From Fimicolochytrium jonesii (lineage: Eukaryota): a stretch of 20,000 nt of DNA. Position numbers and translations under genes: made by a program. Location of the stretch: contig NW_026515700.1 of the NCBI RefSeq assembly GCF_025526975.1, positions 307,041-327,040 on the forward strand. The letters are read 5' to 3'. The notes beneath the pieces were generated by a model. That model did not search any database. It had not been told where the DNA came from and saw only the letters and a list, made by a program, of their open reading frames with translations. Positions 1-20,000 of the stretch are shown one piece after another. Numbering within the stretch: position 1 is the first letter of the stretch; every line of letters starts with the position of its first letter.

Positions 1-1279
1 AACATCCAACTGATCTCTCCCAACGTTCTTCTTTGTCAACGTCGTCTTGAACCCCAACTGCCGAACCAACTCCAATATCTTGTCCCCGACCTTCTCCGCA
101 TCCTTCACGTCGTCATCGCTGCGAGTGTTGGTGCCGATAAACGGGAGGATTTCTGCGATTTTAGCGGCGGTGGCGGGTGAGGAGCGCGCTTTCAATTTGA
201 CGACGTGGCCGAGGGTCAGGCAGCTCGTGATGCCGTGCGGGATACCGTACGGGGATCCGAGCGCATACCCCAGCGTATGGGAGAGTCCGAGGCCGCCTTT
301 GATATTGGAGCCAAGGAAGCCGAGGGAGGCGTAGGCGGCGAGGAAGAGGCGGGTGATGGTATCTGGGTTCTGCGGGTCCTGTTTGTACTTGGGGAGAAAG
401 GTGAAGAGTTCTTTGATGGCGGAGAGGGCCAGGAGTTGGCATGGCATCCAGGTTGCTGTGGGGTGGTATTGCAGTTCGATGGCGTGGTCGAGGGCGCGGA
501 TGCCTGTGGAGATGAAGAGGTCCGGTGGGGTGTGCGCGCCGAAACGGGGGTCGTAGAAGACGTGGGTGGGTAAGGTTCCCGGCTGGGAAATGGCTTGTTT
601 GGTCCCGTCGGGTTGGGTGAATCCGGCGCCGAAGGTGCATTCGGCGGCGGAGAGGGTGGTGGGGATCGCGATGTGGCGGAGGTAGTGGCCGGTCTTTTCG
701 TAGACGCGGAAAGAGATGGCTTTGGCGGAGTCGATGGGTGAGCCGCCGCCAATGGAGATGATGGTATCGATTGGGTGGTCTCCTTGAGCCTGAATGCGAG
801 AACGAAAGGGTATGATGAGTGTTGAGTATGAGTGTGTGAAATTGGGCGATGCATCAAAACGACATCCTCCTCGCTGCGCTCGCGACAAGGATGTTGGGCA
901 TCGATGCTCAAGAACACGGGCTCGCTATCGCTCGCAGGTATTCGCTGCCGCTCCCTTGCGCCAAACAACGCTCACTCCTTTCGTTGCTAACCCTCACCTT
1001 CAAAACAACCTCTACCGCCTCATCCAGCTCCTTGACAGGCGCATGTTGTTTGATTTTACTGAAAGTCACGGCATGCCTCTCCTTCCCCAACAACTCCTCC
1101 ACCTCTTTGACTAAAGGCGTTTTTGTCGCCAGCGAGTTCCCCGTCACAATAAAAGCTCTAGAATCTTCCTTGGGCAGGGCGGCAAGAAGGTTATCTTTCA
1201 CGCTGTTTGGGCCGTAGGAGAGTTGTTGGAGGGTTGTTGGCTTGTAGGTGCCCTGCAGGGGTGAGCGAGAGGATTCCAT
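1..1279 (-). CDS. Iron-containing alcohol dehydrogenase family protein (Fe-ADH / maleylacetate reductase-like), 2 exons visible, 3' end outside window
   Basis: Exon 1 is 1279-998 (MESSRSPLQGTYKPTTLQQLSYGPNS...IKQHAPVKELDEAVEVVLK). The intron is 997-790 (GTGAGG...CATTCAG). Exon 2 runs 789-1, open to the window edge. It contains IISIGGGSPIDSAK (NAD-binding GGGS), AIPTTLSAAE, STGIRALDHAIE and GLSHTLGYALGSPYGIPHG (metal-ligand Asp/His pattern of the family). Confidence 0.92.
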
Positions 1280-1717
1280 CTTGTGCCTTGTTCTTGTTGT
1301 TGTGTTGTTATGTTGTTGTGAGGTGTGAGATATGAATGCGATTATTTGAGCGACAGGGCAGTGAGTACCGGGTCTATGTACTGTACTGTAGGTGCGGGTG
1401 CTATGTGAGGGCCATGCCACACTGCGTTCATAATGGCGGGGCGGGATGGGGCTCTCCGCCGGTCCCGCAGAACACCGGGAGACTCGCCCGTCTGGGGAAG
1501 TGTGACATCACGCGCGCGAAAGTCGTCGCGCAAGACGTCGCTGCGAACGTGGACTCCGACGACGCAGACGCCACGAGCACACAGGAGAAAAGGCAGAGAA
1601 GCATGGGTGGGCTCATTATGCGAGGAAATATGATGGACCGCCGCCGTAGTACATACATAGGACACAGTTGCGCAATCTATGTATATAGCTAGCTTTCGCA
1701 AGTCTTGGTCAGGTCCG

Positions 1718-3810
1718 CTATCGCCAAATATTGCGGAAGGGCCAGATCATATCTACATGGCTAGCTCCTCCACTCCCTCCTTTCGCAGTTAGGCGGTGAG
1801 AGTAAAGCTCGCGGCATGCGTCTGCTCCTCGAGCTACTGTTAGTGCTGGGAGATCCTCGTTGGCGAATATAGGATGGTCCAATGTGACATCACCCGGAAC
1901 ACCAATGCCATTAGCCAGCAACGTCCCCTTCTTGGACTTCTTTATCGTTTTCAAGATTTTTGCGCCATGTCCGGCGTTCGACTCCTGAAAGAAATCAGAC
2001 ATCTGATCTTGAGGATCTGAGGTTTTGATAAAGGCGGCGTTTTGCGTGCTGAACGCGAGCACGCCGGGTTCAGACGATGTTCTGAACAGCGCCGAGCCAG
2101 ACCAGAGACGCTATTCCCCGTCCCATCGGAGGGATCTGTCATGTGGATAGACAGGTCTGGGATCGCCAACTTCCAGAGCATATGGACTTGCGCCTGACGG
2201 GTGTCACGTACTGTACTGCTGGTGCTGGTGGACAGGAAAGAGGGATCGCTTCGTTGTACTGTACCTCTGTCAAGGTCGCGAAGTGGGGGAGAATGGACAT
2301 CAGTCGGCAATCCACCGGCGCTGCCTGTCCAAAGAGCGCAATTGCGACAGCTTCTCCGTCACGGCGGTTGTACCACGCTGTAGGAATTTGGCAATATGAG
2401 AATCGCCATCTGGCAAAGAGATTCCAGTGATCTGAATCGCTACGACGTGCGTTATCTTCAGCACCCGATGTCCATCTCCCTAGTAATAGATACATCATCG
2501 ACGGGGAACCCGCTAGCATCTTCCTCATCATATGGCGGCAAAGCAGTCCAAGCTGCGGCGCCGTCCTCCACGGAATCCGCTCTCCACCCTTCCGGAGTGG
2601 TGAAGACGAAAGTGTGGGGTACGCCGTCCCGAATCCAAAATGACCAGGAAAATATGTCTAGGAGCTGGTGGACGGTGGAGGTCAGCATGAGCTGCGCACG
2701 TCATACGCACGCTTGTTGGCAATGGCGTGCGGAGTCTCAAGCCACTGCGCGGCGCGGCGGTCCTTAAAGCAAGAGAAGGCATCTAGACGTTCGACACGAC
2801 GTCAGGGCGTGTTGAATGATGGAGATACCGGGACGCCAGGAGTTATGGATGCCCGATTGACCAAGTGGCAATACCACGGCATGGCCGCCTTCATCAGATC
2901 TTCCCCTCGATCCCTTAAGTAGCTTCAGTAGTGTCCATCGCTTCATCAGATCTTTCCCTTAATCACCTCGGTCATTATCCTTGGTCAATCGCCATCGCTC
3001 AGCATCAGTACCTTCCTTCGATCCGTCCCGATCGCGCAAGGGTCGGTCGATGTAGTCATCACAGGGGATGACGAGCATCTGCGATCTATCACAGGGTAGA
3101 ATGTGCTGCTTGTGCTACACTCAAGGGCTACTTGCTTCCCGTCGTCCATTTGCAGCAAATGATCTTGTTCGGATCAATTGTCGAAAGAGTCGTGCAGACG
3201 GGGCCGGTGGCGCGCGCTTTCGCCGAAGGCCTCCGATGTGCCTCCGAAGGCCTCTCTCATGGGGAAGGGCTCCTTCGAGTGGAAAATGGGTTCGGCTTGC
3301 GTGCCTCACGCACTCACGCCCGGCCGTACACTCCTCCTTCCTTCACGCCACCTTGTTCTGCTTCGGTTGTAGCGGACTTTGGAAGGTAGATGGTAAAGCT
3401 GAGGCATTGAACGCACCCCAAAGCCTGTCGGAATCCCGTGCGATTCCTGGTTAAAAAAACCGCCACAGATGCGTCCGTGACCGGGAAGACCGATGTTGCA
3501 ACAACCTCAAACCAGTGTCCGGGTTCCATGGCAGCCCGGAAGACAAAAGCAATTGTCTGCTTGCTTTGATTCAGTAATCCGATTCTGACCACGGTGCAGA
3601 TGACGGTGGGTGGAATATGGCAGCGAGAAGGCTTGCTCACACCCGTGGTGGCTATGCTCGGAATAATGTCTGGGGCGTCGTAACCAGATTTGTGGCCAGT
3701 ATATACTGTTTGGCGTAGTGGCGAATCTTCCTGGTCTGCAGACGTGCAGGTCACCGGTTCGATTCCCACGTCCTTCAGCTCAGAGTATGACCGCGACAGT
3801 TGTATGTTAC
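1718..3810 (-). other. Possible degenerate coding remnant(s) of unknown family
   Basis: Several protein-like minus-strand ORF pieces (1718-2062, 1951-2310, 2458-2688, 3314-3892) in different frames. I see no recognisable motif and could not splice them into a coherent model. Confidence 0.2.
2889..3024. repeat. Three imperfect direct repeats (core CATCAGATCTTYCCYTNRATC), ~52-60 bp apart
   Basis: cttcatcagatcttcccctcgatcc (2889-2913), ccatcgcttcatcagatctttcccttaatc (2935-2964), gccatcgctcagcatcagtaccttccttcgatcc (2991-3024). Confidence 0.55.
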
Positions 3811-3971: not shown

Positions 3972-4043
3972 AGGTCTCGCCGAGAATCGAACTCGGGTCG
4001 TGAGATTCAGAGTCTCAAGTGCTAACCGCTACACCACGAAACC
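3972..4043 (-). tRNA. tRNA-Gln (anticodon CTG), intronless
   Basis: The reverse complement reads GGTTTCGTGGTGTAGCGGTTAGCACTTGAGACTCTGAATCTCACGACCCGAGTTCGATTCTCGGCGAGACCT (72 nt). Acceptor stem GGTTTCG/CGAGACC, anticodon arm TGAGA-CT-CTG-AA-TCTCA, T arm CCGAG-TTCGATT-CTCGG. Confidence 0.96.
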
Positions 4044-4302: not shown

Positions 4303-5385
4303 TTACAGCACATGCAAAACATTATCCGGCACATGAAAACTCTCCAAAATCTCTGCAACCGCTGTGTTGAACCCCGGTGGTCCACACACCACAATGCACA
4401 AACTATCCCACGGGTATTCATTCACCCAGTTGCACCTGCCCAGATTCCCCCCTTCCAGATCCGCTGTTCCGTCGACGGACGGCAGCTTCCTGTCGAGCAA
4501 TGTCTTCAAATCTTCCGGTAATATCTCTTTGATATGCTGCCGGGTGACGCGGCCTTTTGATCCAGTCCATGAAGCAGATGGACTGGAGAGGATGTGAGAT
4601 ACGCGTAAGGACCCTTGCTCGGCGCGTTCCATGCATGCGAGCTCGGTGATTAGGAACATCTCTTCCTCGGAGCGGTTCGACCATAGGAGCCGGAGATGCG
4701 ATCTGAGGAGACCTTTGCGGGCGCTTGTTGGTGTGGATGCTCGTACTCGCTGCTCGGGTTGACTGTTGCGTTGGCCAAATTGGCGATAGAAATCTAGGAT
4801 TTGGAGCATGGGTGTGATTCCTGCTCAGATCATGATTGATTAGTTCGACGTTCAATGATGTTCAATTGCGAGTGGAGCAAAACACATACCTGTCCCAGCT
4901 GCAATCATAACGACGTTAGGGTAACAGCCGTCCTCAGAATCCGGATGGATCAGAGGCGTAACGATATGACTTTCCGGATTTGTCATGTCCACAAGGTCGC
5001 CGACGGCGACCTCGTCCAAAGGAGCTGTGACAAGCCCGGCGGGGTATATCTGGAGAACGACTATGTGAGTACATTTTGAGTGCCCACGCTCATACATGAG
5101 AGGCACGCACCTTAATGTATAGATCGATGCAATCATCATTCGGGCTCTTAATTGGCGTATACTCTCTGATGTGGATTGTGCCCGACTTGTCTCTCAATCT
5201 GATATCAAGGCAACGATCAGACCATGCACTGGTTTCTGGGACAGACGAGAACGCACCGCAAAGTCACTGCATCCCCAGGCTCAATATCCACCGGAATCGT
5301 CTGCTTCAACCGAAACCGAAACTTTCGCACCGGCATGGGTGCATTGAAAGCCGTCACCGTCGTCTTCTCAACAAGCGTCGCTCCA
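4303..5385 (-). other. Cytochrome b5 reductase-like FAD- and NAD(P)H-binding domains of the fusion protein
   Basis: REYTPI (RxY[T/S]), YIKIYPAGLVT, MIAAGTGITPMLQ, LLWSNRSEEE, WTGSKGRV, VVCGPPGF. Confidence 0.93.
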
Positions 5386-8300
5386 GCGCCTCTCGACGCG
5401 GAAGTATTCAGAGATGTATGTGAAGTTTCCGACGTCGTTGACGGTGGAGAGAGAATGAACTTCCGCGGACCCGTGTCGGATGGTGGTAATAACGGCTGAG
5501 ATAATGCGGCCGAAGCTATGATTTTGGGTCCCAGTCCTGATTTCGTGGGTTTGTAAGGCCCCTTCTTGGCCTCGAATGATGTAGAAGCTTCTTGAATGGC
5601 GGCCGGGACAATGCTGCTTCGACGACGGGCTAGTGCAGGAGGAGCCGCGCTCACGCTTAGGATCGACCGTCCCATCTCGGTCACCTTTTCCTTAGGGAGG
5701 CACGCAATGACCAGGCTGCTGAGTTTATTCATGGCCTTGATGGAGAGTTGATTAGTCCGTGAGCTTCATGTAAATGCACATGTCAGAGCAACCAAATCTA
5801 ACTTACAAACCGGCTATGCATGTGAATACCGCCGTTTTTCACTTTGCCCAGGAATGCGTTTGTGGCGTCCATGCCAACATAATCTTCCAGTAACCGACGG
5901 CCACCGGGATGCTGATCAAAATAGCCGTTCAAATCCATGACCAGTCTAGTGTGAAGTCAGAGGTTCGATCTCCATCTCAAAGAACACAAAGCCACCGTCT
6001 ACATACCCTCCGATCAAAATCCAAGGCTTTCCGTCCATGCACGATTGCTCAAAATCCTCCAGTGTTATCTCGCGTGCGGGTTCTTTGATCTGCACATCCT
6101 CGGTGAACTGCACAACGCCGACATTCTCCTCTGTGTTTCGCTCGACCCATTTGCCGAGACGGCTTTGCAAGAACCGGTCAAGGAAGCGGTTTGCGAAATC
6201 GCCGAGGTAGGCCTGGATTGATTTGATGCCCAGCAGGATGACGACGAGCAGACCGAAGTAGCCTAGGTAGAGGGAGGGCCAGATCTTGCTGGTGGAGCCG
6301 TAGCTTGCGGCTGGGTGGTTTGAATCGTATCAGTACGGATGAAGTATCAAAGAGCACTGTGCTTCTTGGAGAAATCTTACCCAAGTCCTGCACGCCGTAC
6401 CAGCCATTTAGGATGCCTACGAACTCGTTTAGTCATTTGAAGCCCGGTTATCGCTATAAGCGCCGCTTTACACGTACCCAGTACATAGGTCAAGTAAGAC
6501 CCGAGTTTGTGAACCGACCGCATTCCTTGGGAGTATCTCGCAAAGATCCGCCAGTCTTTCTGCGCAAGAAATCCTACCGTCCCGCCCGCGATTCCGACGC
6601 AGGCGGTAGCCACGCCGATTTTGATATGATCGTACGTGTGCATCTTCAACTGGATAACAAGTATCACTTTAATTCTCCGTTAAAGCTGCTGCCGTCGAGC
6701 CCAACTCCAAACCTTACAATAAACTCGTCATACGAGACGGCAATGTGTCGCAACGTAAACGCAAACTCTCCCAGCGCAAAGCTCATGAAGAACTTGTGCC
6801 AGCCCAACCACAGATCAGCACGTTTTCCATAACGGGCAATATAGATCCCCACAGGTATCATCACGAAGAGAATCAGGAGCATGTCGCCTGCGTGCCATCT
6901 GGTTTCGGGAACGAGCAGTATTGGTGTACGAAAGGGTAAATGAACCCTTATCGCATAGAACACTTACATCCGGAAAAAGACGTCGAAATCGTGGGAGTCC
7001 GTGATCGCAACCGACGACGAGCCACTACTCCCCGACCCAACCCGAATATTCAATTTTACCTGAAACCGGTTACCGGCCCCATGATATGCCAACTTCTTGT
7101 CGGATGACGAATACGCAAAGATCACCGGAAGCGTTGCACTCGTGCTGCTGATCTCCTTGTCGCAGGCGTCGCCGGTGCTGAGTTTGCGGGTGAATGCGAA
7201 GGCGCGGGTGGAGGACCAGTCTGCTGTCACATCTTTCATGTTTGTGATGTCGTTTGTGCAGCCTTGGCTGACATCCGTTGGTGGCTATGAGTCGATGAGA
7301 AGATGGAGTAAGGGTATGCGGGGTGACCCACAGCATTATATGACCCTTTACCTGTGTATACGATGTGGAGTACAAATCGTGAACACTCCAGGTTCCATCG
7401 TCGTCCTCATAAACCGCATACATGTCTGCGTTCGTCATGGTATCACCGATCCCGAATGCAAACCTACCGCCCGCGTTCGTCAAAGATCGGTCCTTTTCTC
7501 ACCCAAAGTACATGGAAGCCCTTCAGTTTCTTACCACCCGCTGTAATTCGAGGCAATAACAAAATCCACCGTTTTCGCAGTGACATCGATGTAGTATTGC
7601 AAGATCAGCCCTGTCGTCAATTGAACGGTTTGTTTCGCGGAGCCCTGGGTCGTGCCAGTTGATGTGCTGCTCGTGGTCACTCCGCGAAGAGCATCAATTG
7701 TGGTTGCGTCCGCCCAGCTGTGGCGCAATAGAAGAACCTGTTTCAGTAGGTGATCCAACGGACGCGGAGAACGTGCCAGCTCCACCGCAGCCCTAGTGAC
7801 GCACCTAAACGCGCTTTCTGGAAAGGCGGCGATATCCGTATTCCACAGGATTATGTTTGACAAGGTCACATTGTTTAAATCCTTGGTGTCTTGGGCGTTG
7901 AGCACATCGGGGAGTTGATACCAGAACGCATCACCGTCTAGGATGCATAACAGCGTGAGTTTCTCTCCAGTATATCCTACATTCAAATATCACATCCTCC
8001 TCCTCCACCGCTCACCCCGTAACCTCATAAACTGAGTCATGATCGACGCCTTGAACAACGGCCCCACTAGCCCAGATTCAGCATCCTCGGCTAATCCGCC
8101 CACATACGGCTCTATGTTGTCGATATTCCCTTCATACGCATCATAGAGAGCTTTCTGTAGAACCTCGTCGGCGGTGATGTCGGCGAATGCATAAACTTTC
8201 GTGAGGCCGAAACTCTTCCTGCATTCGTTATAGCTGGGGAGACCGATATCTCTGTGGGCAATTGGTTTTTCCAGGATTAAGCCTCAGTCTGCCAGGGCAT

Positions 8301-10014
8301 CGCCTGATTCGCAAAGCACTGACCGGCCCCTCTGGATGTTGAAAGCCGCCAGATCGAAGAAAAGCTGCGGCTTCAGCCCGAATGGAGCTGCCGGCATGAA
8401 TTGACGGAGGTCATCGACAAGAACTACGTCTGCGGCTTGTTCCAGCTTTTGAGGTTTGGCAATTCAATGATGAGCGTGACTTCCTTTGCACCGCACACAA
8501 CATTCTCCGAAACCCAACTCACCTGTGCCACCAAGCCTCGAAGAATCGGCTCGATACCATCAGTCACGACGGCGGCAGGGTTCGTGATCGCGTCGCGGAG
8601 AATTAGATGCCCCTTTGGGAATGGCGCCCATTTCTCGTCAAGACGTGGTATGATGGGGCTGATTGCGCTGTGGCCGTAGCGGAAGGATGCTCCCCAGAAA
8701 AGCATGTCAATAGCTGTGAGAGTAAACGGTCGATGAGCAGAGAGTAAAGCGCATAGGAGGTGGACCGGTAACTCACCGGGATCTATCGATGCGTTGTAAC
8801 CCTTATATGCTGGAAGTGGCTGGCCCAGCAATCGAGGAAGATACTAAGGACATTGCATCAGTTGAAACTCTCGAATCGCAATATGACGGACGTAATTATA
8901 GGTAGCCACCTCGGAGTACGTGACTTTTTGAATGCAAGCGACGACCCACGTTCTGGCCATCTGAAAGAGAGCCTCATCTGTGGCATTTGGATATAGTTTC
9001 AGATACTGAGCAGCACGACGGTTGTGCTCTCGCATGAATAACGTTTGGATTGAGAGCAGCGCTGGATTCTTGACAAAGGAAAACGTCGGTAAGTGGATGC
9101 TAAGCTGGTGAAGGCCGATTATACACGTAATGATAGATCACCTCATTCGCACGGACATCCCTACGCAAAGCAATTCGTCAATATGAGATCACAATTACTC
9201 ATACTCGTTGCCAACTCTCACCCAGCCAGGAAGGTTCGGGGTTTCAATCCCAACATGATATCCGGCGTACTTTCTGGCCGAAAAGGTAGAAGATTTCCCT
9301 TGTACGTTCTGAACAGCCCGTTGGAGAACGTCCGTAGCATCGCAGCACGCTCGTCATCTGCACCGTAAACCTGTGACCCGTCCACCCATGCCGATTGCTT
9401 GTTGTGGAACACACGCTCGTGCGTCGTCGGATCGGGGGTGTAGTTGATGCGGGTGAACTTCATAGTTGCTGTTCCCGTGCTCCCTGGGTCGTAGACTGGA
9501 TCGCCAGATGGTACGCCGATGTTGAAGGACTCGGAGGCATTATTTTCAACATGGATGATGTCCTATAATCGCTGACACATTAGCCCCCAGCATCCGACAA
9601 CACATCCCATTCTCAATCCTTACTGACATGAGCCATAAATTGTCCCCAGAAAGCCAGCATATTCGACACCTTCTCCACGTTCGGCACATCGTCCCCTGCA
9701 CTTCCCATCACTGTATTCGACACATGTCGTGCACTTGGGTAGGTGGAGTTCCCCGTCCCTATCGGCGCGCCAATGCCGTCGACATAACGTGATCCCCGAA
9801 CTTCGATCCGGCCAAATGGCGTCCCGTACGAGCCCCAAGCGGGATTAGCCGCATTGTTCTGCATGGCACATGTATATACGGGTGAGTTTCAAAATCTCAT
9901 TAATCCCTCCGGCGCAACGATTTTTATTACCCCACTTCCGTCGAAATGCCGGTAGGCAGCGCGTGTAGCGCCAAAAAGTTGCTCAAAGAGCAGGTAGCAT
10001 AACCACGGCTTCAT
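4303..10014 (-). CDS. Multidomain membrane oxidoreductase: signal peptide + animal-type heme peroxidase + DOMON + cytochrome b561 + cytochrome b5 + FAD/NAD(P)H reductase (1423 aa, 22 exons)
   Basis: Exons on the minus strand: 10014-9931, 9858-9628, 9562-9222, 9160-9142, 9068-8910, 8843-8777, 8713-8523, 8445-8324, 8251-8016, 7937-7805, 7717-7535, 7463-7352, 7284-6968, 6898-6718, 6649-6478, 6416-6381, 6310-6007, 5945-5807, 5735-5257, 5198-5111, 5049-4890, 4820-4303. All 21 introns are GT..AG with consistent phases. The total is 4272 nt including TAA. Domain motifs are listed in the sub-features. Confidence 0.88.
5705..6085 (-). other. Cytochrome b5 heme-binding domain of the fusion protein
   Basis: ITLEDF...PWILIGGLVMDLNGYFDQHPGGRRLLEDYVGMDATNAF...HMHSRFAMNKLSSLVIA, with canonical HPGG, G.DAT..F and HS motifs. 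Confidence 0.92.
6190..6898 (-). other. Cytochrome b561-type transmembrane di-heme domain of the fusion protein
   Basis: Four spaced His in hydrophobic helices: WHAGDMLLILFVMIPVGIYIARY, WLGWHKFFM, DHIKIGV, MRSVHKLGSYLTYVLG. These are followed by a further hydrophobic helix, WPSLYLGYFGLLVVILLGI. Boundaries are approximate. Confidence 0.85.
7040..7630 (-). other. DOMON domain (heme-binding Met/His type) of the fusion protein
   Basis: GWFAFGIGDTMTNADM (ligand Met), VHDLYS...PPTD, FAFTRKLSTGDACD, VIFAYS, LAYHG (ligand His). Boundaries are approximate. Confidence 0.9.
7805..9957 (-). other. Peroxidase-cyclooxygenase superfamily (animal heme peroxidase) domain of the fusion protein
   Basis: YRHFDGSG-NN..NPAWG, PSARHVSN, WGQFMAHD (distal Gln/His), SAWVDGSQVYG (Ca loop), GDVRANE (distal Arg/Glu), LFMREHNR, FRYGHS (proximal His), DLAAFNIQRGRDIGLPSYN, YVGGLAE, QFMRLRDGDAFWY. 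Confidence 0.95.
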
Positions 10015-10659: not shown

Positions 10660-13095
10660 ATGCCTATCCGTGAGGTGGCTGGGCCCATTGGCCTGCATTG
10701 TGGCGCTTATGGCGATTGGTGGTGATGTTGCGCTGGCCGCAACTACGTACGACCTTGAAGATCACCGCAACTGCGAAGGTCACATCGACTACAAAAGTTA
10801 CCACTCCGATCGCATCGACAGCGAAGGTAACATCGACGCCGAAGCCGTCACCTATCCTTACTTCGACGCTAAAGCCATCTGACTCCCAGTACATCAACAC
10901 CAAAGCCGACCACCCCTCCCGTTACATCAACACCAAAGCCGCCACCCCTCCTGTGACATCAGCGCCCAAACCATCTACTCCGCCCGTGACAGCTACGCCA
11001 AAGTCGTCCAACCACCCCGTGACATCTATGCTAAAGCCGTCAACTCCCACCATTGATCGTCGACGCCACGATCTGTCAGGAGCAGTGTCACATCGTCAAG
11101 CAGGCCGCTTTCTTCTGTGCCTTCCGCAACTCCCATTGTGTCATCAGGCAGGCCGATCTCGTCGACGCCTGTCGCCACTCAAGTCGCGCCCGCTTCGTCG
11201 TCCTATTCGCCTCCTCCGGTATCCTCACACTCGACGCCTGCCGCATCATCCCTTAGGCCTAATTCACCAGCTTATTCGGCTTTTCCTTCGTCTTCACCAG
11301 CATACTCCCCACCTGCCGCTTCTTCTGCCGGGTCGACTGTTTCCTCATACTTGCCCCCTCCGGCATCTGGTTCTCCGTGGTACCCGGGTGTGAGCACCTT
11401 CATCGCATCAGACGCACATAGACCCAGCAGCTCCTTTGCAGCTTACAGTCCCCCGCCCTCAGCTGGTGATGCCTCATTTTCACCGCTACAAACGGCCTCA
11501 TTTTCACCGCTACAGGGCGGCGATGCTCCTTCATCTAGCTGGGACTCCGCGTTTGCATCCCCGAGTTGCCGAGTTACCGGAGTGACCCGTGTACAGCTGG
11601 GTGTCACCATCGCCCAGCGCATGGGATGCTGCTTCGCCTTCCACCGATTTTGGAGCTCATAGTTCTTTCCCATCGGATTGGCCATCTGGATCGCCGCAAC
11701 CTTCCGCCTCCCAAAGCCATGGTCGTCTGCATCGCCGTGGGCATCTGCGCCGCCCTCATCATCTCTCTTATCGGTCTCTGCACCGTCCTCAGCCATCTAT
11801 CCTCCTCCTTCCCTACCCTCAACCCCGATTGCTTCCTCGCCGATCTTTTCACAGCCGAACTATTCTCAATCCTCTCCGGCCGTCATAAGCCTCTCTCCGT
11901 CCGCACCAGCACCAGCACCAACACCCACTACCTCGCAGGAGCGTCACCTGCGCTTCCAGGATGTCAGCTACAGAAATATTTGCGGCTCTTCAATGCTGCC
12001 AAATTTCATATCACGGTCATTGGCAATCACAACGAGCTGTGGAACATCCGGGTCGAGGCCGCATTTCTGTGCCGTCATTTCTTGGTTTGATTATCCATTC
12101 TTGGCGGGGCATTGCAGAACTGAAATCTTGCGACGTAACAGAAACGGACGGCTTTGTCATCCGAGTCCAACTACGTGCACGACGTCTATGTCCGCAACGG
12201 CGACGAATGCTTCACGGTCAAAACGCCCACCAACAACTTCCGCGGCGAAAACATCTTTTGCAACAATACGGCTGGCAACAATATCGGGTCGTTTGGAAAT
12301 GGCCCCGTGCCTGTGAGGGTTTCCAATGTGTATTATCGGAATGTCACGCTGGTAAGAACATTGTGACACTTTATGATCATTTTTTTGAACTTCTGCCTTG
12401 CACTTGTTTCCATCCAGATTGGTCCAGCCTCCGCCGGGATCATGCACAAGGCGTACATCATCAACAATGGATATGTGACGAACGTCACTTACGAGGACTT
12501 CCGGATGGAGTCCGCTGCGTGAGTCCTAGGTAGCTAACCGGCTCCCCGGATTTTAGGTACCCGATTTCCATCAACCCATTCTGGTGTGGCAAAGGCGATT
12601 GCGGAAACACCTATGGAAAGTAAGTGTGATTTCCGATTGACCTCTGGCTTCGAGTGCGGCTGCAAACGCGGGTCGTCATAAACCTTGGCATGTGGAAAAG
12701 ATTTAGTCTGGGGAAGCTCTACAGTGCGGTCGGAGTGAGGGCTTCAGATAACGGTGGACCTAGAGGCATGGAATCTGATGTGAACGACCGTATCCGCGTG
12801 CGATGGGGCCAGAACGGCGGCCATTTGTCTGGCCGACGTCCTCCCATGCTAACGTTCACCCATCCCTCCCAGCCTTACATTCAGCAACATAACATACCGC
12901 AATTTCAAAATTTACGGCAAAAACGACAAACCCAGAGCGCTCGTCCAAATGAAGTGCATCAGCTCAACGCAATCCCCCATCGGCAAAATTCAGTGCTCCA
13001 ACATCAAGCTCTGTAACGTCGACAGGAGTCAGGCGGTTGGGTATGGCGCGGACGACGTTACCAATGTTAGTGGTCATACTACGAATTGCAAGTAG
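10660..13095 (+). pseudogene. GH28 rhamnogalacturonase-like pectinase with signal peptide and long Ser/Thr/Pro-rich stalk; frameshifted, N-terminal part of the catalytic domain apparently missing
   Basis: A signal-like segment (RWLGPLACIVALMAIGGDVALAATT) is out of frame with ATG 10660. The S/T/P-rich frame switches near 10748, 11055, ~11570-11590 and ~11715. GH28 pieces: HLRFQD, LFNAAKFHITVIGNHNELWNIRVEA, ETDGF, SNYVHDVYVRNGDECFTVKTPTNNFRGENIFC..AGNNIGSFG..VSNVYYRNVTL. Clean 3' exons follow: 12418-12518 (GIMHKAY..GYVTNVTYEDF), 12557-12619 (YPISINPFWC) and 12873-13095 (LTFSNITYRNF...CSNIKL...TAG). NGDEC with no GHG motif points to the rhamnogalacturonase type rather than polygalacturonase. Confidence 0.8.
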
Positions 13096-14412
13096 GTTTG
13101 TAGATGCGGCGGACGATGCGGGCAGTCTGACTTCGAGTTGCACTATTCGAGGCAAACTCCTTAACCACTCGGACACAGTGTCGTGAATCAAACCTGAAAG
13201 ATTGTGTGCCGTTGGGAAACGCACGCCTCCTGAAGCGTGGAAAGAATGCTTGATATTTGTTGCAGCAGCTGTGAAAAGTAATCCGACCTCTGAAGAAGGA
13301 GAGAGTTCCTCGACCGCACGGCTTAGGATCGCGGCGAGAAGGCGTACCATACCGGTGCACTTCATGCCCAATGGCAGCACAAAGGCAGGAGAACGGCAGG
13401 AGAGCGCCTGAAGAATGTGCACATTCCCAAACCCGGCATGATAAGAGTCGGTACACTTCCCGTTGTGTCCTTGTCAATTGTTCCAAAGAGAAGAAACCTA
13501 TCTCCCAATCCATGTCCGCCATTGTTCGAAAAACCTCACCGCCTCAATCACGGTTTGGCCGATTGTTGGAAGAAAAAAAAAAAAGAAGTGAACCAATGCA
13601 TTCATTGGTTTCGATTGTACCCAAAAAAAAAACTGGTCCATTCCGTCCGTCCTTGTCCGAATTTTTCAAATAAGTCCTTTTCCAATTGTTTGAAAGACAA
13701 AAAATTGGTTCAATCGTGGTTCTTCCTTTGTTCCCGTTTCTCCTGTGCTTCGGATCCGTTTTGAAGGAGCTAGAGCGGAGAAAGGCGTGTCGTGCTTATG
13801 TCAGCTCCGACGGTATTCGACGGTTCACAATCGTTGAACGAAAGAATAACCAGATGTATGACACAAACGTAGAAAGCTAGGGTTAGGAGTCAGAAGGAAC
13901 GGCAGTCAAATGAAGTTGCCCAGGGGTAGGGGAGGACAAACGGGTATCGCAGATAACAGGCATAACAGGAACGCAGCTAGGAGGGAGGAAGACCGAGGGA
14001 GGAGGAAATAAGGTACAATCAAAACCACGTCCATATCTCAAGGTCCACCAGAGAAAAAGGTTTCGTGCAGCTGTTCTCGATGCTGGTGTGACAGGGGTGT
14101 GACAGGGGTTCGCCACAGCATCCTGTGGTAACCAAGCCTCCTTTGACTTCCTCCGCCATCTTTTGTCTAGGTGAGGGTACCACGATGCAGGCCGCGGGGC
14201 GTGGTATACGCAGTTGGGATATCTTCGGGCGAGTAGAATGGGGGAGTTCGCCCTCTTTCCGAAAATCAATGAGCGGGCGGTATCGCATTCACGCCGATGC
14301 TTTTCAGGCGTCGTAGCTGCAGATGAAAGCACAGATTAAGCCTGACCTGTCTAAATGACCCGACGCAAAGAACTGTGAAAATATCCAGAGCCAGTTTTGC
14401 ACAAGGAACAAC

Positions 14413-16506
14413 TCACCGATTCTCCCTCCGAAACAACAGCGAAGCAGCCGCCCCAACCTCCCCAAACTCGAAACCAAACCCATCTTCTTCTCTCCTTACG
14501 GGCCCGTTCGCATTACCACAATCTGCCGCCGATTTCCGTACTGTCGATCGCTCAGCGGTATCCACCTCTATCCGCACATCCTCCCTCGCGTGGTACGACC
14601 CGACCGCCCTTTCCCTCGCCTCTGCCAGTGCCGCTATGGCTCTGAGCCGGTATGCATTCACATCCATAGGCATACCAGGACTCCTCCTCCTCCGTCTTCT
14701 TTCACTGTCACTACGGCCCAACACGCCATCCCCGTCGCGGTACTTCCTCGTGCTGTTCCGCGCGTACGTATTCCCCGTGCCTTTATCGTGGTCAGTGAAG
14801 CGGGATGGGCGTGGAGATAGGGATCGGGTTCGGTCTCGTTCTGGATTGGGGAGGGTGGAGGAGGGGCGGGATCGTGTGGCGTGTGGGGGGATGGTGGTGA
14901 GGGTGGTGTCGCGGTGATGGGAAATGGGCCGTGGACGAGTAAGGGTGGTGTCGCGGTTGGAGTGTGCTGCAGCTGTCGTTGGTGTTGTGATTGGATTGGG
15001 AGAACGTTGAGCGCCGCTTCTATCCATACGGGTGCTGTCATGACGCGACGGCGCTGATGAGAGGCTCCGGTCCGCATTGGCCATCAGCGTTTCGTCTATC
15101 CCCACCCGGCCGTCTTGCATGGTGGAGGGTGGGGTCGATACACCGGATCCGGTGTCCGCAGCAGCAAAATAAGCCTGCATAGCAGAAACCGCCTCCTCAT
15201 CATAAGCCGGCGGGACGTGCGGATGTGGTGTTGATTGAGTGCGCGTGCTGTCCCGGTAGAACTGATCGCGCTCTCGCGCACGGTCAATGAGAGCCGCTGC
15301 TGTCGGGCGGGTCGACTTTGACTGTTTTGGTTTCGGTTGTGGTAATCCGGGCTCGGTTTTGATCTTCACGGCGTCCTCTACCTGCACTGTCGGTTGCTCG
15401 ACCATTTCGTTCTTGATGTCAGGCACCGCAGCAACGCTGTTCTCGGGTTTGATAACCTTATCTTCAGGGATTGTGACAAGAGGTACTTCACTAGCTGCGC
15501 AACTGACGACACCCGGGACGCCCGGCGGGTCAGGCGTGCGACGCCACATTAGGAGTGGGTCGAAAATGATCTCGGGTTGTGGGCCCCAGCCTTGGACAGT
15601 CTTTTCTTTCGCAATCCCATTCCCCGTTCTCTCATCCCATCGCAGCTTGTACTCGTCAAACCGACTTACATCCGGTTCTGGTAGAAAATCCTGGCCGTCA
15701 AAACCGCCTACACGTAGTCGAGAGTGGGTGTCGCTGCTGTTGCTGCCAAGACCGGCCATGCTGTTTCCCATTCCGCTGTTGTGAGTAGCCAGTCCGATGT
15801 TTGCGGCAGCGGTGTTGAGGTTGTTCGGCCGATCGTGCCAAGTAGACCCCCGCATCTGCATGGGCTTGCCCATTCCCGGGCCGTATGCGCTACCGCGCAT
15901 AGCTGCTGCATTCGCACGAGCATTGTTGCCGAGTGAGTAGTCTCGTCCGCCGGGTATCATGCCGCCCATCATCCTCATACCATTCATCCCGTATCCAACA
16001 CCGACGCCGCCCATTCCGACCTTCACGCCGTCATACGTCCCGAGTACACCCGCAGGTGGATACGCCATCATATTCATTCCCATATCCATTTCCATGCCCA
16101 TGCCCATGCTCATCCCAATCGTCGCATTCGGGTATCCTCCACCATGGTATCCCATCCCCATCTGATATGCTGCTTGTCCGCCCGCCATGCCCATATGCGG
16201 GCCTGCTGCTCCCCAACCTCCCGGATCCAGTCCCACGGGGCTGTATTGATTCATAAAGTCTGGCTCGTCGTATGGATTGGGCATCATTCCTCCTCCTCCT
16301 CCGTAGCCGTATAGGTCCGGAAATACAGGCCCGCCGCCCCCGCCTCCTCCGCGCCCGTTGCGGAACCCAATAGAGTCATCGTAGAATCGGTTCTGATAGA
16401 CAGACACCAGGAAGGAAGAGCAGTTAGAAGAGGTATCAGGGTACGGACCTGTAGGTCTGTATATGGGATCGATCGCTAGAGCCTTGGAGCAGCACGTACG
16501 TACCAT
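14413..16506 (-). CDS. Hypothetical low-complexity, probably disordered protein (~660 aa spliced; Gly/Met/Tyr/Asn-rich N-terminus, Arg/Ser/Thr-rich C-terminus)
   Basis: 697-codon open frame. There is a likely in-frame 111-nt intron at 16503-16393 straight after the ATG (ATG|GTACGT...CTAAC...TATCAG|AAC), giving MNRFYDDSIGFRNGRGGGGGGG... No recognisable folded domain. Confidence 0.65.
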   Translation of the reverse strand: MVRTCCSKALAIDPIYRPTGPYPDTSSNCSSFLVSVYQNRFYDDSIGFRNGRGGGGGGGPVFPDLYGYGGGGGMMPNPYDEPDFMNQYSPVGLDPGGWGAAGPHMGMAGGQAAYQMGMGYHGGGYPNATIGMSMGMGMEMDMGMNMMAYPPAGVLGTYDGVKVGMGGVGVGYGMNGMRMMGGMIPGGRDYSLGNNARANAAAMRGSAYGPGMGKPMQMRGSTWHDRPNNLNTAAANIGLATHNSGMGNSMAGLGSNSSDTHSRLRVGGFDGQDFLPEPDVSRFDEYKLRWDERTGNGIAKEKTVQGWGPQPEIIFDPLLMWRRTPDPPGVPGVVSCAASEVPLVTIPEDKVIKPENSVAAVPDIKNEMVEQPTVQVEDAVKIKTEPGLPQPKPKQSKSTRPTAAALIDRARERDQFYRDSTRTQSTPHPHVPPAYDEEAVSAMQAYFAAADTGSGVSTPPSTMQDGRVGIDETLMANADRSLSSAPSRHDSTRMDRSGAQRSPNPITTPTTAAAHSNRDTTLTRPRPISHHRDTTLTTIPPHATRSRPSSTLPNPERDRTRSLSPRPSRFTDHDKGTGNTYARNSTRKYRDGDGVLGRSDSERRRRRRSPGMPMDVNAYRLRAIAALAEARERAVGSYHAREDVRIEVDTAERSTVRKSAADCGNANGPVRREEDGFGFEFGEVGAAASLLFRRENR

Positions 16507-16875
16507 TCTGGATGGAGTAAACAGCAGCTGTGCTTTTTTTGGCTGACCCTCGTTTGCACATCAAACTGCTCAGAGCGGATATTTGAGCGACCAGACAGCT
16601 CTGACTCTATGGGTATATATGAGTGATGCAGATAAGTTGGTGGTTGCGCGTGTGTCTACAGGGAGGATTGGCAGGACAGGACAGCAGGACTCAGGACAAC
16701 CCTGCACAGCCACCCGGACTCTGAGGACTATCACCATTGCAGACATCATTGTCACGGATTTCAACACCAGACACATACAGCATCGCGGTTGGCAACAGCA
16801 CGGTTCCCCAGTGGCTGGACTTCGGCTCCCTGCTCTCCTTTTCGCTTTTGAGTTACTCTGGACTTGGGAATCAGC

Positions 16876-17381
16876 ATGCCAAGGTATGGTACCTGATTCT
16901 CGCCACACCCAGACACGCCGTCTTCGGCGTGGCCTCTCACAGTGGCCTTGTACGGCGCGCACAAGAGCTGAAGATGTCTTCAACAATTGGAGCTGACTCT
17001 ATCTTTCTCTCTATATCTTCACCACAAACTGGTGTGGTGCCTAGGCACAAGAAGGGTCGCGCTCGGGTGAACTTTCCTGGTTGTGATAAGAGATATGGGC
17101 AACGTTACGACCCTGGATGCATTGGATGTGGGGACGTTGGGTCTACGGGATTTTGGAGGGTTGGGAGGGAGATTTATCTTCGCTTGTTGGACTATGGGTA
17201 TTGGCCCATGATGGGGCAGGGTGCATATGAACCATATGCGTGCGAGGGATGCATGCGGAGGTGGCGGAAGCTGGGCTGGACTGTAAGCGGCGTGGCTGTT
17301 GACGAGGAGGAGGGGAATGATGTCGTTGTTATGGTGAATGGTGAAGGAGAGAACCCATCCTTTGAAGTGATTGAGGATCCC
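16876..17381 (+). pseudogene. Truncated ORF with a GATA-like C4 zinc finger, interrupted by the subtelomeric unit
   Basis: Possible start ATG 16876 with intron 16884-16942 (GTATGG...CTCACAG) in frame. It encodes CIGC..STGFWR...YACEGCMRRWRKLG and an acidic stretch. The frame then runs directly into AGGGTTAGGGTTA at 17382. Confidence 0.4.
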
Positions 17382-17730
17382 AGGGTTAGGGTTACAGGAC
17401 TGTTCCGGGTTATGGGTTATTTTTGGTGGTCCGGAAAGTGTCAAATAAAGTTGCTAGCAATGTTCAAGGGTGTCTTACGGTACTGTACATAGAAATTTGG
17501 GGCATGTTTTCCACTCAATGCTCCCGGAAAATCTGTTTTTCCGCTTTTTGACTATGAAAATGTCACCAAAACGCATTTTCTGAAACTCTGAGTGGATGGA
17601 TTTTGCTTAAAGTTCAATATGTCTCAGAAAACATCCCCAGAAACATCTAGGAACCTTCATCTACTCTAGTATTTATCAACTCCTGGCACTTTTTGTTTCC
17701 AGGCAATATGGGGGTGTTCTGCAGTTGGTG
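17382..17730 (+). repeat. Diverged, 3'-truncated internal copy of the subtelomeric unit, preceded by only two telomere repeats
   Basis: AGGGTTAGGGTTA at 17382-17394, then 17395-17730 colinear with 18394-18729 (roughly 90% identical by eye). Homology stops after CAGTTGGTG. Confidence 0.93.
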
Positions 17731-17773
17731 TTATGGACGACGCGCCCATACCATAAGCTTACCTACTGACAGC

Positions 17774-17855
17774 CGCCAATGTCAACCGCCAAATGTCAAA
17801 CGCCAATGTCAATGTCAATGTCAGTGTCAATGTCAGTGTCAATGTCAATGTCAAT
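17774..17855. repeat. Hexamer microsatellite (CARTGT)n, ~8-9 units, preceded by CGCCAA(A)TGTCAA repeats
   Basis: cgccaatgtcaaccgccaaatgtcaaacgccaatgtcaatgtcaatgtcagtgtcaatgtcagtgtcaatgtcaatgtcaatg. Confidence 0.9.
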
Positions 17856-17982
17856 GCCACTCCCTCTCTCCTCTCATTTCGCCAATCCTCTTGCAATATC
17901 GCCACTCCTCCTCTCTCCTCTCATTTCGCCAATCCTCTTGCAATATCGCCACTCCTCCTCTCTCCTCTCATTTCGCCAATCC
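17856..17982. repeat. 47-bp pyrimidine-rich minisatellite, ~2.7 copies
   Basis: Unit gccactcctcctctctcctctcatttcgccaatcctcttgcaatatc, starting at 17856 (45-bp variant), 17901 and 17948 (partial). Confidence 0.92.
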
Positions 17983-18183
17983 CCCCTCGGCTTCTCCACA
18001 CCCCCCACTGCTTCCCCATAGCCAGCAGCTGTAGCAATGCTCTCTACGCTCGCCACGCACGCTCTAGGAGCATAGCTGGCGCCCCCCAGTCCCCTCTTGT
18101 TGTTGTTGTTCTCTGATCTGCTGGGTTGCCTATCTATAAATAGCCGGCCTCTTTTCGTCCATTCCCTTCCTCCCCAGCAGATC

Positions 18184-18845
18184 AGGGTTAGGGTTAGGGG
18201 TTAGGGTTAGGGTTAGGGTTAGGGTTAGGGTTAGGGTTAGGGTTAGGGTTAGGGTTAGGGTTAGGGGTTAGGGTTAGGGTTAGGGTTAGGGTTAGGGTTA
18301 GGGTTAGGGTTAGGGTTAGGGTTAGGGTTAGGGTTAGGGGTTAGGGTTAGGGGTTAGGGTTAGGGTTAGGGGTTAGGGTTAGGGTTAGGGTTACAGGACT
18401 GTTCCCGGTTATGGGTTATTTTTGGCCATCCAAAAAGTGTCATATAAAGTTGCTAGCAATGTTCAGGGGCATCTTACTGTAATGTGCTTCAAGTTTTGGG
18501 GCATGTTTTCCACTCAATGCCCCGGGAAAATCTGTTTTTCCGATTTTTGACTATGAAAATATTGCCAAAATGCATTTTCTGAAACTCTGAGTGGATGGAT
18601 TTCGCTTAAAGTGGAATATGTCTCAGAAAACATCCCCAAAAACATCTAGGAACCTTCATCTACTCTAGTATTCATCAACTCCTGGCACTTTTTGTTTCCA
18701 GGCAATATGGGGGTGTTCTCCAGTTGGTGGCGAATGACTCATTTTGGTTTGCTCTCAATTTGCTACATGTTCAAGGGTTAGGGTTAGGGTTAGGGTTTTA
18801 GGGTTAGGGTTAGGGTTAGGGTTAGGGTTAGGGTTAGGGTTAGGG

Positions 18846-18886
<41 letters not shown>

Positions 18887-20000
18887 GGTTAGGGTTAGGG
18901 TTAGGGTTAGGGTTAGGGTTAGGGTTAGGGTTAGGGTTAGGGTTAGGGTTAGGGTTAGGGTTAGGGTTACAGGACTGTTCCCGGTTATGGGTTATTTTTG
19001 GCCATCCAAAAAGTGTCATATAAAGTTGCTAGCAATGTTCAGGGGCATCTTACTGTAATGTGCTTCAAGTTTTGGGGCATGTTTTCCACTCAATGCCCCG
19101 GGAAAATCTGTTTTTCCGATTTTTGACTATGAAAATATTGCCAAAATGCATTTTCTGAAACTCTGAGTGGATGGATTTCGCTTAAAGTGGAATATGTCTC
19201 AGAAAACATCCCCAAAAACATCTAGGAACCTTCATCTACTCTAGTATTCATCAACTCCTGGCACTTTTTGTTTCCAGGCAATATGGGGGTGTTCTCCAGT
19301 TGGTGGCGAATGACTCATTTTGGTTTGCTCTCAATTTGCTACATGTTCAAGGGTTAGGGTTAGGGTTAGGGTTTTAGGGTTAGGGTTAGGGTTAGGGTTA
19401 GGGTTAGGGTTAGGGTTAGGGTTAGGGTTAGGGTTAGGGTTAGGGTTAGGGTTAGGGTTAGGGTTAGGGTTAGGGTTAGGGTTAGGGTTAGGGTTAGGGT
19501 TAGGGTTAGGGTTAGGGTTAGGGTTAGGGTTAGGGTTACAGGACTGTTCCCGGTTATGGGTTATTTTTGGCCATCCAAAAAGTGTCATATAAAGTTGCTA
19601 GCAATGTTCAGGGGCATCTTACTGTAATGTGCTTCAAGTTTTGGGGCATGTTTTCCACTCAATGCCCCGGGAAAATCTGTTTTTCCGATTTTTGACTATG
19701 AAAATATTGCCAAAATGCATTTTCTGAAACTCTGAGTGGATGGATTTCGCTTAAAGTGGAATATGTCTCAGAAAACATCCCCAAAAACATCTAGGAACCT
19801 TCATCTACTCTAGTATTCATCAACTCCTGCACTTTTTGTTTCCAGGCAATATGGGGGTGTTCTCCAGTTGGTGGCGAATGACTCATTTTGGTTTGCTCTC
19901 AATTTGCTACATGTTCAAGGTTAGTTAGGGTTAGGGTTAGGGTTAGGTTAGGGTTAGGGTTAGGGTTAGGTTAGGGTTAGGGTTAGGGTTAGGGTTAGGG
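18184..20000 (+). repeat. Composite telomeric array: (TTAGGG)n tracts alternating with a ~380-bp spacer
   Basis: Tracts: 18184-18393, 18774-18969, 19350-19538, 19918-20000 (open at the window edge). Spacers: 18394-18773 (380 bp), 18970-19349 (380 bp), 19539-19917 (379 bp). The G-rich strand is on +, consistent with the chromosome end lying to the right. Confidence 0.97.

What the first reader, a model, noticed from the sequence alone, without database searches (positions are those of the whole stretch)
4303..10014. One-polypeptide trans-membrane electron wire feeding an extracellular heme peroxidase (DUOX-analogous, built from different parts)
Seen: one phase-consistent 22-exon frame joins signal peptide, heme peroxidase, DOMON, cytochrome b561, cytochrome b5 and FAD/NAD(P)H reductase. 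Ligands are present for up to five hemes (peroxidase His; DOMON Met/His; four b561 His; b5 HPGG/HS) plus FAD. Established: DUOX couples a peroxidase-like domain to EF-hands and a NOX/gp91 core. DOMON-b561 proteins (CYBDOM, FRRS1/SDR2) move electrons across membranes from an external donor such as ascorbate. The b5 + b5-reductase pair is the diaphorase module of nitrate reductase and CYB5R4. Inference: electrons flow NAD(P)H > FAD > b5 > b561 > DOMON to the outside, to make superoxide/H2O2 for the attached peroxidase, to reduce iron or quinones, or to recycle the peroxidase. I know of no characterised protein with this architecture, but I cannot exclude unannotated homologues in other fungi or protists.
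Basis: partly seen in the sequence, partly recalled or inferred. Interest (0 to 1): 0.92.

Follow-up and report, generated by a model that had tools for sequence, protein, structure and literature searches.

The report
Peroxidase-tipped transmembrane electron wire
A chytrid fungus gene, likely read as one membrane protein, joins an NAD(P)H-type reductase and four predicted heme sites to a peroxidase predicted to face outward, and would let the cell likely make and use its own surface peroxide, as animal dual oxidases do but from different parts, in a family shared with mycorrhizal fungi and some algae.

Summary
Observation confirmed. A 22-exon minus-strand frame (10014-4303, 1423 aa) gives heme peroxidase, DOMON, cytochrome b561 plus a fifth helix, cytochrome b5 and an FAD/NAD(P)H reductase. 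Residues 1-589 are identical to a Fimicolochytrium jonesii protein. That public model stops at intron 11, inside DOMON, but the Powellomyces orthologue is one 1421-aa protein, 62% identical end to end. No transcript could be checked.

It belongs to a large family: 50 of 145 clusters carry all six domains. Members occur in chytrids, a blastoclad, ten mycorrhizal genera, a brown alga and a glaucophyte, and their peroxidase domains form one clade apart from DUOX. The eight wire ligands are almost invariant and the proximal His is kept, but the distal catalytic His is present in only 27 of 61 rows. This copy keeps the full catalytic set.

Outward electron flow is well supported; the end product is inferred. 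Best reading: a DUOX-like peroxide source feeding the peroxidase (0.45). Rivals: iron/quinone reductase (0.3), peroxide sink (0.15). It fails DUOX membership. Ten paper searches found no description of it. The scan noted this design before in two other genomes.

The parts
4303..10014 (-). Whole gene, 22 exons: 10014-9931, 9858-9628, 9562-9222, 9160-9142, 9068-8910, 8843-8777, 8713-8523, 8445-8324, 8251-8016, 7937-7805, 7717-7535, 7463-7352, 7284-6968, 6898-6718, 6649-6478, 6416-6381, 6310-6007, 5945-5807, 5735-5257, 5198-5111, 5049-4890, 4820-4303; 1423 aa
9958..10014 (-). Putative signal peptide (aa 1-19), weak in this copy (two polar residues in the core)
   Evidence: hydropathy only; SignalP not available; the orthologue aligns from here
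7805..9954 (-). Peroxidase-cyclooxygenase heme peroxidase domain (aa 21-528): distal Q101, H105, R222; ester Glu225; Ala104 in place of the ester Asp; proximal H315, N400, R403; D106 and D166 at the expected calcium site
   Evidence: residue roles from DdPoxA (PMC5787809 passages); calcium-site assignment by recalled homology
7045..7635 (-). DOMON domain (aa 556-706), heme ligands M598 and H694
   Evidence: a family member's model matches the cellobiose dehydrogenase cytochrome 4QI3
7464..7534 (-). Intron 11; read-through gives Trp then TAA (7533-7531), where the public 654-aa model ends. It cuts DOMON before both heme ligands
6210..6981 (-). Cytochrome b561 four-helix core (H734, H766, H800, H839) plus a fifth helix (aa 728-895)
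   Evidence: Pfam Cytochrom_B561 above cut-off in homologues P0009, P0148, P0051
5703..6077 (-). Cytochrome b5 domain (aa 940-1020), H975 in HPGG and H1006
4969..5381 (-). FAD-binding domain of cytochrome b5 reductase type (aa 1128-1225), R1180-x-Y1182
4303..4926 (-). NAD(P)H-binding domain (aa 1240-1423), G1250-T-G1252 and C1397-G1398; stop codon

Best explanation
The gene is likely one membrane protein whose predicted chain NAD(P)H, FAD, b5 heme, two b561 hemes and DOMON heme would carry cytosolic electrons to the outer face, where they likely end on O2 to give superoxide/H2O2 that the attached peroxidase, whose catalytic residues are all present, would use to oxidise iodide, thiocyanate or phenolics. 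Shown: frame, domains, ligands, conservation. Inferred: a single transcript, the topology, outward flow, O2 as acceptor (at the peroxidase-fold heme, or through iron/quinone cycling at DOMON), and the substrates. In relatives that lost the distal His the oxidant itself would be the product, as in mammalian DUOX.
For: One chain in orthologues: Powellomyces 1421 aa, 62% identical over the whole length, 51-75% per domain and 32% in the long linker. 50 of 145 new clusters show all six domains in order. Wire ligands in 83 aligned rows: M598 81, H694 81, H734/H766/H800 83, H839 80, H975 83, H1006 81. Five helices, with K+R enriched in loops 1 and 3 and after helix 5 (family means 2.4, 3.7, 4.8 against 0.7, 0.7), place peroxidase and DOMON outside and b5/reductase inside. 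Outward flow through b561-DOMON is shown for Arabidopsis HYP1 (PMC10784544 passages). The active site matches DdPoxA, a secreted one-ester peroxidase that oxidises iodide and thiocyanate with H2O2. Among 61 rows with those columns filled, 34 lack the distal His, yet 30 of them keep all eight wire ligands and 31 keep the proximal His; the state changes at least 7 times on the tree. So the wire stays useful without peroxide cleavage. DUOX shows the same loss of peroxidase activity (PMC4420034 passage), and fPoxDB counts 0 DUOX genes in fungal and oomycete genomes (PMC4029949 passage).
Against: No activity, expression or transcript data. Thermodynamics: b561/DOMON proteins are listed at -29 to +190 mV (PMC12723747 table) and DdPoxA Fe(III)/Fe(II) at -276 mV. 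Reducing the ferric peroxidase heme is therefore uphill, as is one-electron reduction of O2 (about -160 mV, recalled), unless these hemes are tuned lower. The characterised b561-DOMON protein HYP1 reduces Fe(III) and Cu(II); 'superoxide' does not occur in that paper's text. Wires without a peroxidase exist (P0157, P0051; a ciliate-rich Atlas cluster at 0.77, a lead only). The public model of this species stops at residue 589, and this copy's signal peptide is weak.
Confidence: 0.45

Rival explanations
1. It is likely an NAD(P)H-driven surface reductase for ferric/cupric chelates or quinones, acting at the DOMON heme, with the peroxidase as an accessory that clears or uses the peroxide that such cycling produces.
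For: This is the measured activity of the closest characterised module, CYBDOM HYP1. It is downhill from NAD(P)H through hemes at -29 to +190 mV. Peroxidase-less wires exist. It tolerates loss of the distal His. The family is expanded in mycorrhizal fungi: 32 of 34 hits.
Against: It does not explain why a 500-residue peroxidase fold with its proximal His (57 of 61 rows) and heme-pocket arginines stays fused across fungi and algae from a single origin.
Confidence: 0.3
2. It would be an NAD(P)H-fed peroxide sink: the wire re-reduces Compound I/II of the peroxidase and so removes outside H2O2 at the cost of cytosolic NAD(P)H.
For: This is the most downhill acceptor (Compound I/II near +1 V, recalled). 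This copy has the whole catalytic set. The fold search places DOMON nearest the cellobiose dehydrogenase cytochrome, which passes electrons to partner enzymes (recalled).
Against: 34 of 61 members lack the distal His, and only 21 keep Gln+His+Arg, yet the wire is kept. This cannot be the family's shared job, though it may hold for intact copies.
Confidence: 0.15
3. In this species the locus would mainly yield a short secreted peroxidase ending at intron 11, with the rest separate or unexpressed.
For: The public protein P0001 ends at residue 589, where intron read-through meets a stop.
Against: The stop cuts DOMON before both ligands. Identity to the orthologue is 74% before and 68% after the intron within DOMON, and 51-71% in the downstream domains. 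The intron has canonical ends and is phase-consistent. Orthologues are single chains.
Confidence: 0.07

Closest known systems
Dual oxidase (DUOX; family 7 of the peroxidase-cyclooxygenase superfamily)
   Same: Outer peroxidase-fold domain, transmembrane di-heme core and cytosolic FAD/NAD(P)H domain in one chain; the peroxidase site is often degenerate.
   Different: No ferric-reductase/NOX core and no EF-hands. It uses b561, DOMON, b5 and a b5-reductase-type domain, five predicted hemes. The proximal His is kept, and this copy is catalytically complete. Its peroxidase clade excludes the two DUOX rows (100/98; sister link only 82/41).
CYBDOM proteins (Arabidopsis HYP1/CRR)
   Same: Outer Met/His DOMON on a five-helix b561, three b hemes in a row.
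   Different: CYBDOMs take electrons from ascorbate. Here a b5 and a flavin reductase are fused inside and a peroxidase outside.
DdPoxA (6ERC) and Cyanobacterium TDX16 peroxidase (8S6C)
   Same: Best solved matches (E 3e-82 and 6e-107; folds). Same distal and proximal triads; like DdPoxA it has the ester Glu but not the ester Asp.
   Different: DdPoxA is a free secreted enzyme needing outside H2O2, and both chains are single-domain; here the domain is tethered to an electron source.
CYB5R4 / nitrate reductase b5 + b5-reductase module
   Same: b5 followed by FAD_binding_6/NAD_binding_1; best solved matches are b5 reductases 2EIX, 7ROM and CYB5R4 6MV1.
   Different: Here the module is fused to a transmembrane cytochrome rather than being soluble or feeding a molybdenum centre (comparison recalled).
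DOMON-bearing ferric reductases (eFRE of Naegleria and oomycetes, PMC3591440)
   Same: Outer DOMON on an NAD(P)H-driven transmembrane heme protein.
   Different: They use the ferric reductase domain; the passages read mention no b561, b5 or peroxidase in them.

Membership tests
DUOX | N-terminal peroxidase-homology domain (PF03098) | tested here: met
DUOX | NOX-type ferric reductase core with FAD_binding_8 | tested here: not met
   No Ferric_reduct or FAD_binding_8 hit in 7 + 12 proteins scanned; the core has five helices and matches b561
DUOX | EF-hands | tested here: not met
   No EF-hand family hit
DUOX | Peroxidase domain without proximal His, inside the DUOX clade | tested here: not met
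   H315 present; the family clade excludes DUOX (only two DUOX rows)
DUOX | NADPH-dependent H2O2 production | not testable with these tools
   needs an assay
CYBDOM | Met/His DOMON outside a b561 with four His | tested here: met
   (b561 fold match 4O7G is weak: E 5e-3, TM 0.54 over the target, on homologue P0072)
CYBDOM | DOMON plus b561 only, ascorbate as donor | tested here: not met
   Four further domains including its own flavin reductase; ascorbate use itself is untested
Peroxidase-cyclooxygenase superfamily (domain) | Distal Gln-His-Arg and proximal His-Asn-Arg triads | tested here: met
   Q101/H105/R222 and H315/N400/R403 align with DdPoxA
Peroxidase-cyclooxygenase superfamily (domain) | Two heme ester residues as in lactoperoxidase | tested here: not met
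   Glu225 present, Asp replaced by Ala104: the one-ester type of DdPoxA
Peroxidase-cyclooxygenase superfamily (domain) | Compound I formation and halide oxidation | not testable with these tools
   needs an assay
Cytochrome b5 reductase-type flavoprotein | RxY, GTG and CG motifs; NADH or NADPH preference | tested here: inconclusive
   Motifs met; the columns that may set the nucleotide preference are variable and poorly aligned

The most novel reading that the evidence does not exclude
A second, independently built class of NAD(P)H oxidase-peroxidase, old in eukaryotes and kept by chytrids, mycorrhizal fungi and some algae. A five-heme wire would end on the peroxidase-fold heme itself, which reduces O2: intact copies make halogenating oxidants without free peroxide, and distal-His-less copies (all mycorrhizal ones with that column filled) release ROS. 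Intron 11 retention might also switch this gene to a secreted peroxidase.
Probability: 0.3. Interest if true: 0.92.

Novelty: new variant of a known kind. Interest (0 to 1): 0.78.

Why it matters
The NAD(P)H-driven transmembrane oxidases and reductases in the reviews I read (NOX, DUOX, FRE, STEAP) all rest on the ferric reductase domain, and b561 systems use ascorbate. This family joins b561 to its own NAD(P)H input and to a peroxidase, so it would be a convergent answer to DUOX in a kingdom where fPoxDB counts no DUOX. It is expanded in arbuscular mycorrhizal fungi, whose handling of ROS and iron at the root interface is an open question, and it gives named genes to test. This chytrid copy, with a complete active site, is a good one to express first. 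Database names ('heme peroxidase', and a truncated model here) hide the design.

Tried and rejected

A quick FastTree nested DUOX inside the family; the mixture-model tree on 28 of those 112 rows rejected this, so I dropped 'DUOX arose from this family'. The Atlas search of the wire alone gave no usable hit. Nucleotide preference could not be read. The 65 extra N-terminal residues of the public model were rejected as a start because the orthologue aligns from 10014.

Papers: ten searches found no description of this architecture. PMC10629195 mentions animal-like heme peroxidases in Mucoromycota but gives a peroxidase + P450 architecture (passages). PMC8778642 and bioRxiv 2021.12.02.471044 had nothing relevant for my terms. 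Iyer 2007 on DOMON architectures is not held and could list this fusion. No supplements were read; subscription journals and PeroxiBase/RedoxiBase entries were not searchable.

Full report
1. Observation. The window is eukaryotic, intron-rich DNA with TTAGGG arrays from 18184 onward. On the minus strand, 10014 to 4303 splices into 22 exons and 1423 aa with 21 GT-AG introns of 58-87 nt. A homology-free splice programme found 21 introns, 18 identical to the final model; three I moved by hand. It scores the real span +34.7, against -95 for the other strand and -83 to -149 for 17 of 20 shuffles, 3 giving no chain. Of 18 exons scanned, seven hit An_peroxidase in order, two DOMON (below cut-off), one Cyt-b5 and one NAD_binding_1.

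2. Source and orthologues. Exon 3 matched a Fimicolochytrium jonesii 'heme peroxidase' at 100% (P0001, 654 aa), a spizellomycetalean chytrid. P0001 equals model residues 1-589 and stops where read-through of intron 11 gives a stop. That point lies about 30 residues into DOMON, before both ligands. Powellomyces hirtus P0002 is one 1421-aa chain, 62% identical throughout: 75% in the peroxidase, 74/68% in DOMON before and after the intron, 56% b561, 70% b5, 71% FAD, 51% NAD, 32% in the long linker. The short public model is most likely an annotation error or a minor isoform. I have no reads to decide.

3. Family. One search added Borealophlyctis and Acaulospora. One search gave 34 hits, 32 from ten mycorrhizal genera; 22 of 34 carry all five of An_peroxidase, DOMON, Cyt-b5, FAD_binding_6 and NAD_binding_1. 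A search of 1.84 billion representatives with P0013 listed 150 proteins. Of the 145 new ones, profiles built from the family found all six domains in order in 50 and peroxidase only in 40; most others are partial. Pfam on 12 proteins agrees with the design. Of 20 looked up, 10 carried species names: Boothiomyces, Cladochytrium (2), Thoreauomyces, Phlyctochytrium, Polychytrium, Spizellomyces, Sorochytrium (Blastocladiomycota), Discosporangium (brown alga) and Cyanophora (glaucophyte). The Atlas holds a 179-member cluster with these domains. In a 28-row mixture-model tree (15 family, 2 DUOX, 11 other rows, chosen by me from 112), the family peroxidase domains form one group (100/98); DUOX is outside, with weak sister support. 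That fits one fusion event. Outgroups came from my own searches, the root is not inferred, and transfer to algae was not tested. Wires without peroxidase exist (P0157, P0051).

4. Anatomy. Family-averaged hydropathy shows an N-terminal peak and five helices (735-753, 768-786, 803-821, 841-859, 875-893), with basic residues in loops 1 and 3 and after helix 5; a weaker peak at 1244-1262 lies on the nucleotide-binding motif. This predicts peroxidase and DOMON outside, b5 and reductase inside. This copy's own signal peptide is weak (1.61 against 3.77). AlphaFold models of two homologues, not of this protein, gave the expected folds. P0103 (pLDDT 82.7) matches 8S6C, DdPoxA, lactoperoxidase and DUOX peroxidase domains. 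P0072 (pLDDT 89.0) has a beta-sandwich, five helices and b5, matching cytochrome b5, the cellobiose dehydrogenase cytochrome and, weakly, Arabidopsis b561. The reductase is of b5-reductase type.

5. What is conserved. In 83 rows (model, 12 earlier hits, 70 long hits) the eight wire ligands are present in 80-83, and the proximal His in 73. In the 61 rows with the relevant columns filled, the distal His is present in 27, Gln+His+Arg in 21, and the full set with Glu and Asn in 8. The 34 without distal His keep all wire ligands in 30 and the proximal His in 31; the state changes at least 7 times on a FastTree of the wire, which cannot tell gain from loss. Mycorrhizal copies carry Phe, Tyr, Ser or Ala there and Asp for the proximal Asn. 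This gene keeps Q101, H105, R222, E225, H315, N400 and R403, with Ala for the second ester Asp: the DdPoxA type, which oxidises iodide and thiocyanate (PMC5787809, passages).

6. Mechanism. Electron export is well supported (about 0.9): ligands, topology, and the HYP1 precedent of three b hemes linking cytosol to outside (PMC10784544, passages). The acceptor is inferred. A peroxide sink is the most downhill option but cannot be the shared function, since most members lack the distal His. Metal or quinone reduction matches HYP1 and the listed potentials of -29 to +190 mV (PMC12723747, table passage), but leaves the retained heme pocket unexplained. Oxidant production explains the fusion to a DdPoxA-like enzyme and the repeated DUOX-like decay of the distal site, at the price of an uphill step (DdPoxA -276 mV). 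I commit to it at 0.45, with 0.3 for the reductase, 0.15 for the sink and 0.07 for a split or short product. The first two are not exclusive: redox cycling of iron or quinones also yields peroxide.

7. Known systems and novelty. It works like DUOX in layout but fails membership (no NOX core, no EF-hands, separate clade). It contains a CYBDOM but has its own NAD(P)H input. I read passages, not whole texts, of PMC3591440, PMC9421330, PMC4420034, PMC4029949, PMC10629195, PMC8778642, PMC9137787 and bioRxiv 2021.12.02.471044; none describes this architecture, and neither did the ten searches. Iyer 2007 was not held, and supplements were not read; either could list it. A sequence look-up in the scan's notes found nothing; a word look-up found two earlier notes of the same design in other genomes. 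These are unchecked AI notes, seen after my reading was formed.

8. Verdict. A real, conserved and apparently unstudied family: known parts, a new single-chain assembly. Novelty: new variant of a known kind. Interest 0.78.

Noticed in passing
window 7464-7534 (-): Retention of intron 11 gives an immediate stop and would yield a secreted peroxidase without the wire; the public model has this form.
   Followed up: partly
window 1-1280 (-): Iron-containing alcohol dehydrogenase gene (Fe-ADH hit E 1e-6, below cut-off), running off the window start.
   Followed up: partly
window 3972-4043 (-): tRNA-Gln(CTG) about 260 nt past the gene's stop. A tRNA-like stretch near 3710-3775 (+) was not recognised by either tool.
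   Followed up: partly
window 10660-13100 (+): Gene-like region with a signal-like start, a Pro/Ser/Thr-rich repeat (33-nt unit at 10883-11026) and a C-terminal part that resembles a polygalacturonase (recalled motifs, no Pfam hit). It shows stops and frame changes and may be a decayed gene.
   Followed up: partly
window 14413-16560 (-): 715-codon open frame, Gly/Met-rich then Arg/Ser-rich, no Pfam hit.
   Followed up: no
window 17371-20000: Subtelomeric array: units of about 570-1000 nt, each a unique segment plus a TTAGGG tract of about 190-210 nt, three copies 100% identical over 300 nt and one 87%. The gene lies about 8 kb from it.
   Followed up: partly
P0051, P0089, P0064, P0080: Family variants: SH3 domains in the reductase region (Boothiomyces P0051; weak hit in Spizellomyces P0089), a C-terminal protein kinase hit (Phlyctochytrium P0064, possibly merged genes), two DOMON domains (P0080).
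   Followed up: no
Atlas rank 2: A 54-member, mostly ciliate cluster with DOMON, Cyt-b5 and FAD_binding_6 and no peroxidase (score 0.77): possibly the wire alone.
   Followed up: no
P0063-P0077 clade: A chytrid subfamily has His one position before the usual distal His (10 of 61 rows) and often Gly for the proximal Asn: a third kind of heme pocket.
   Followed up: no
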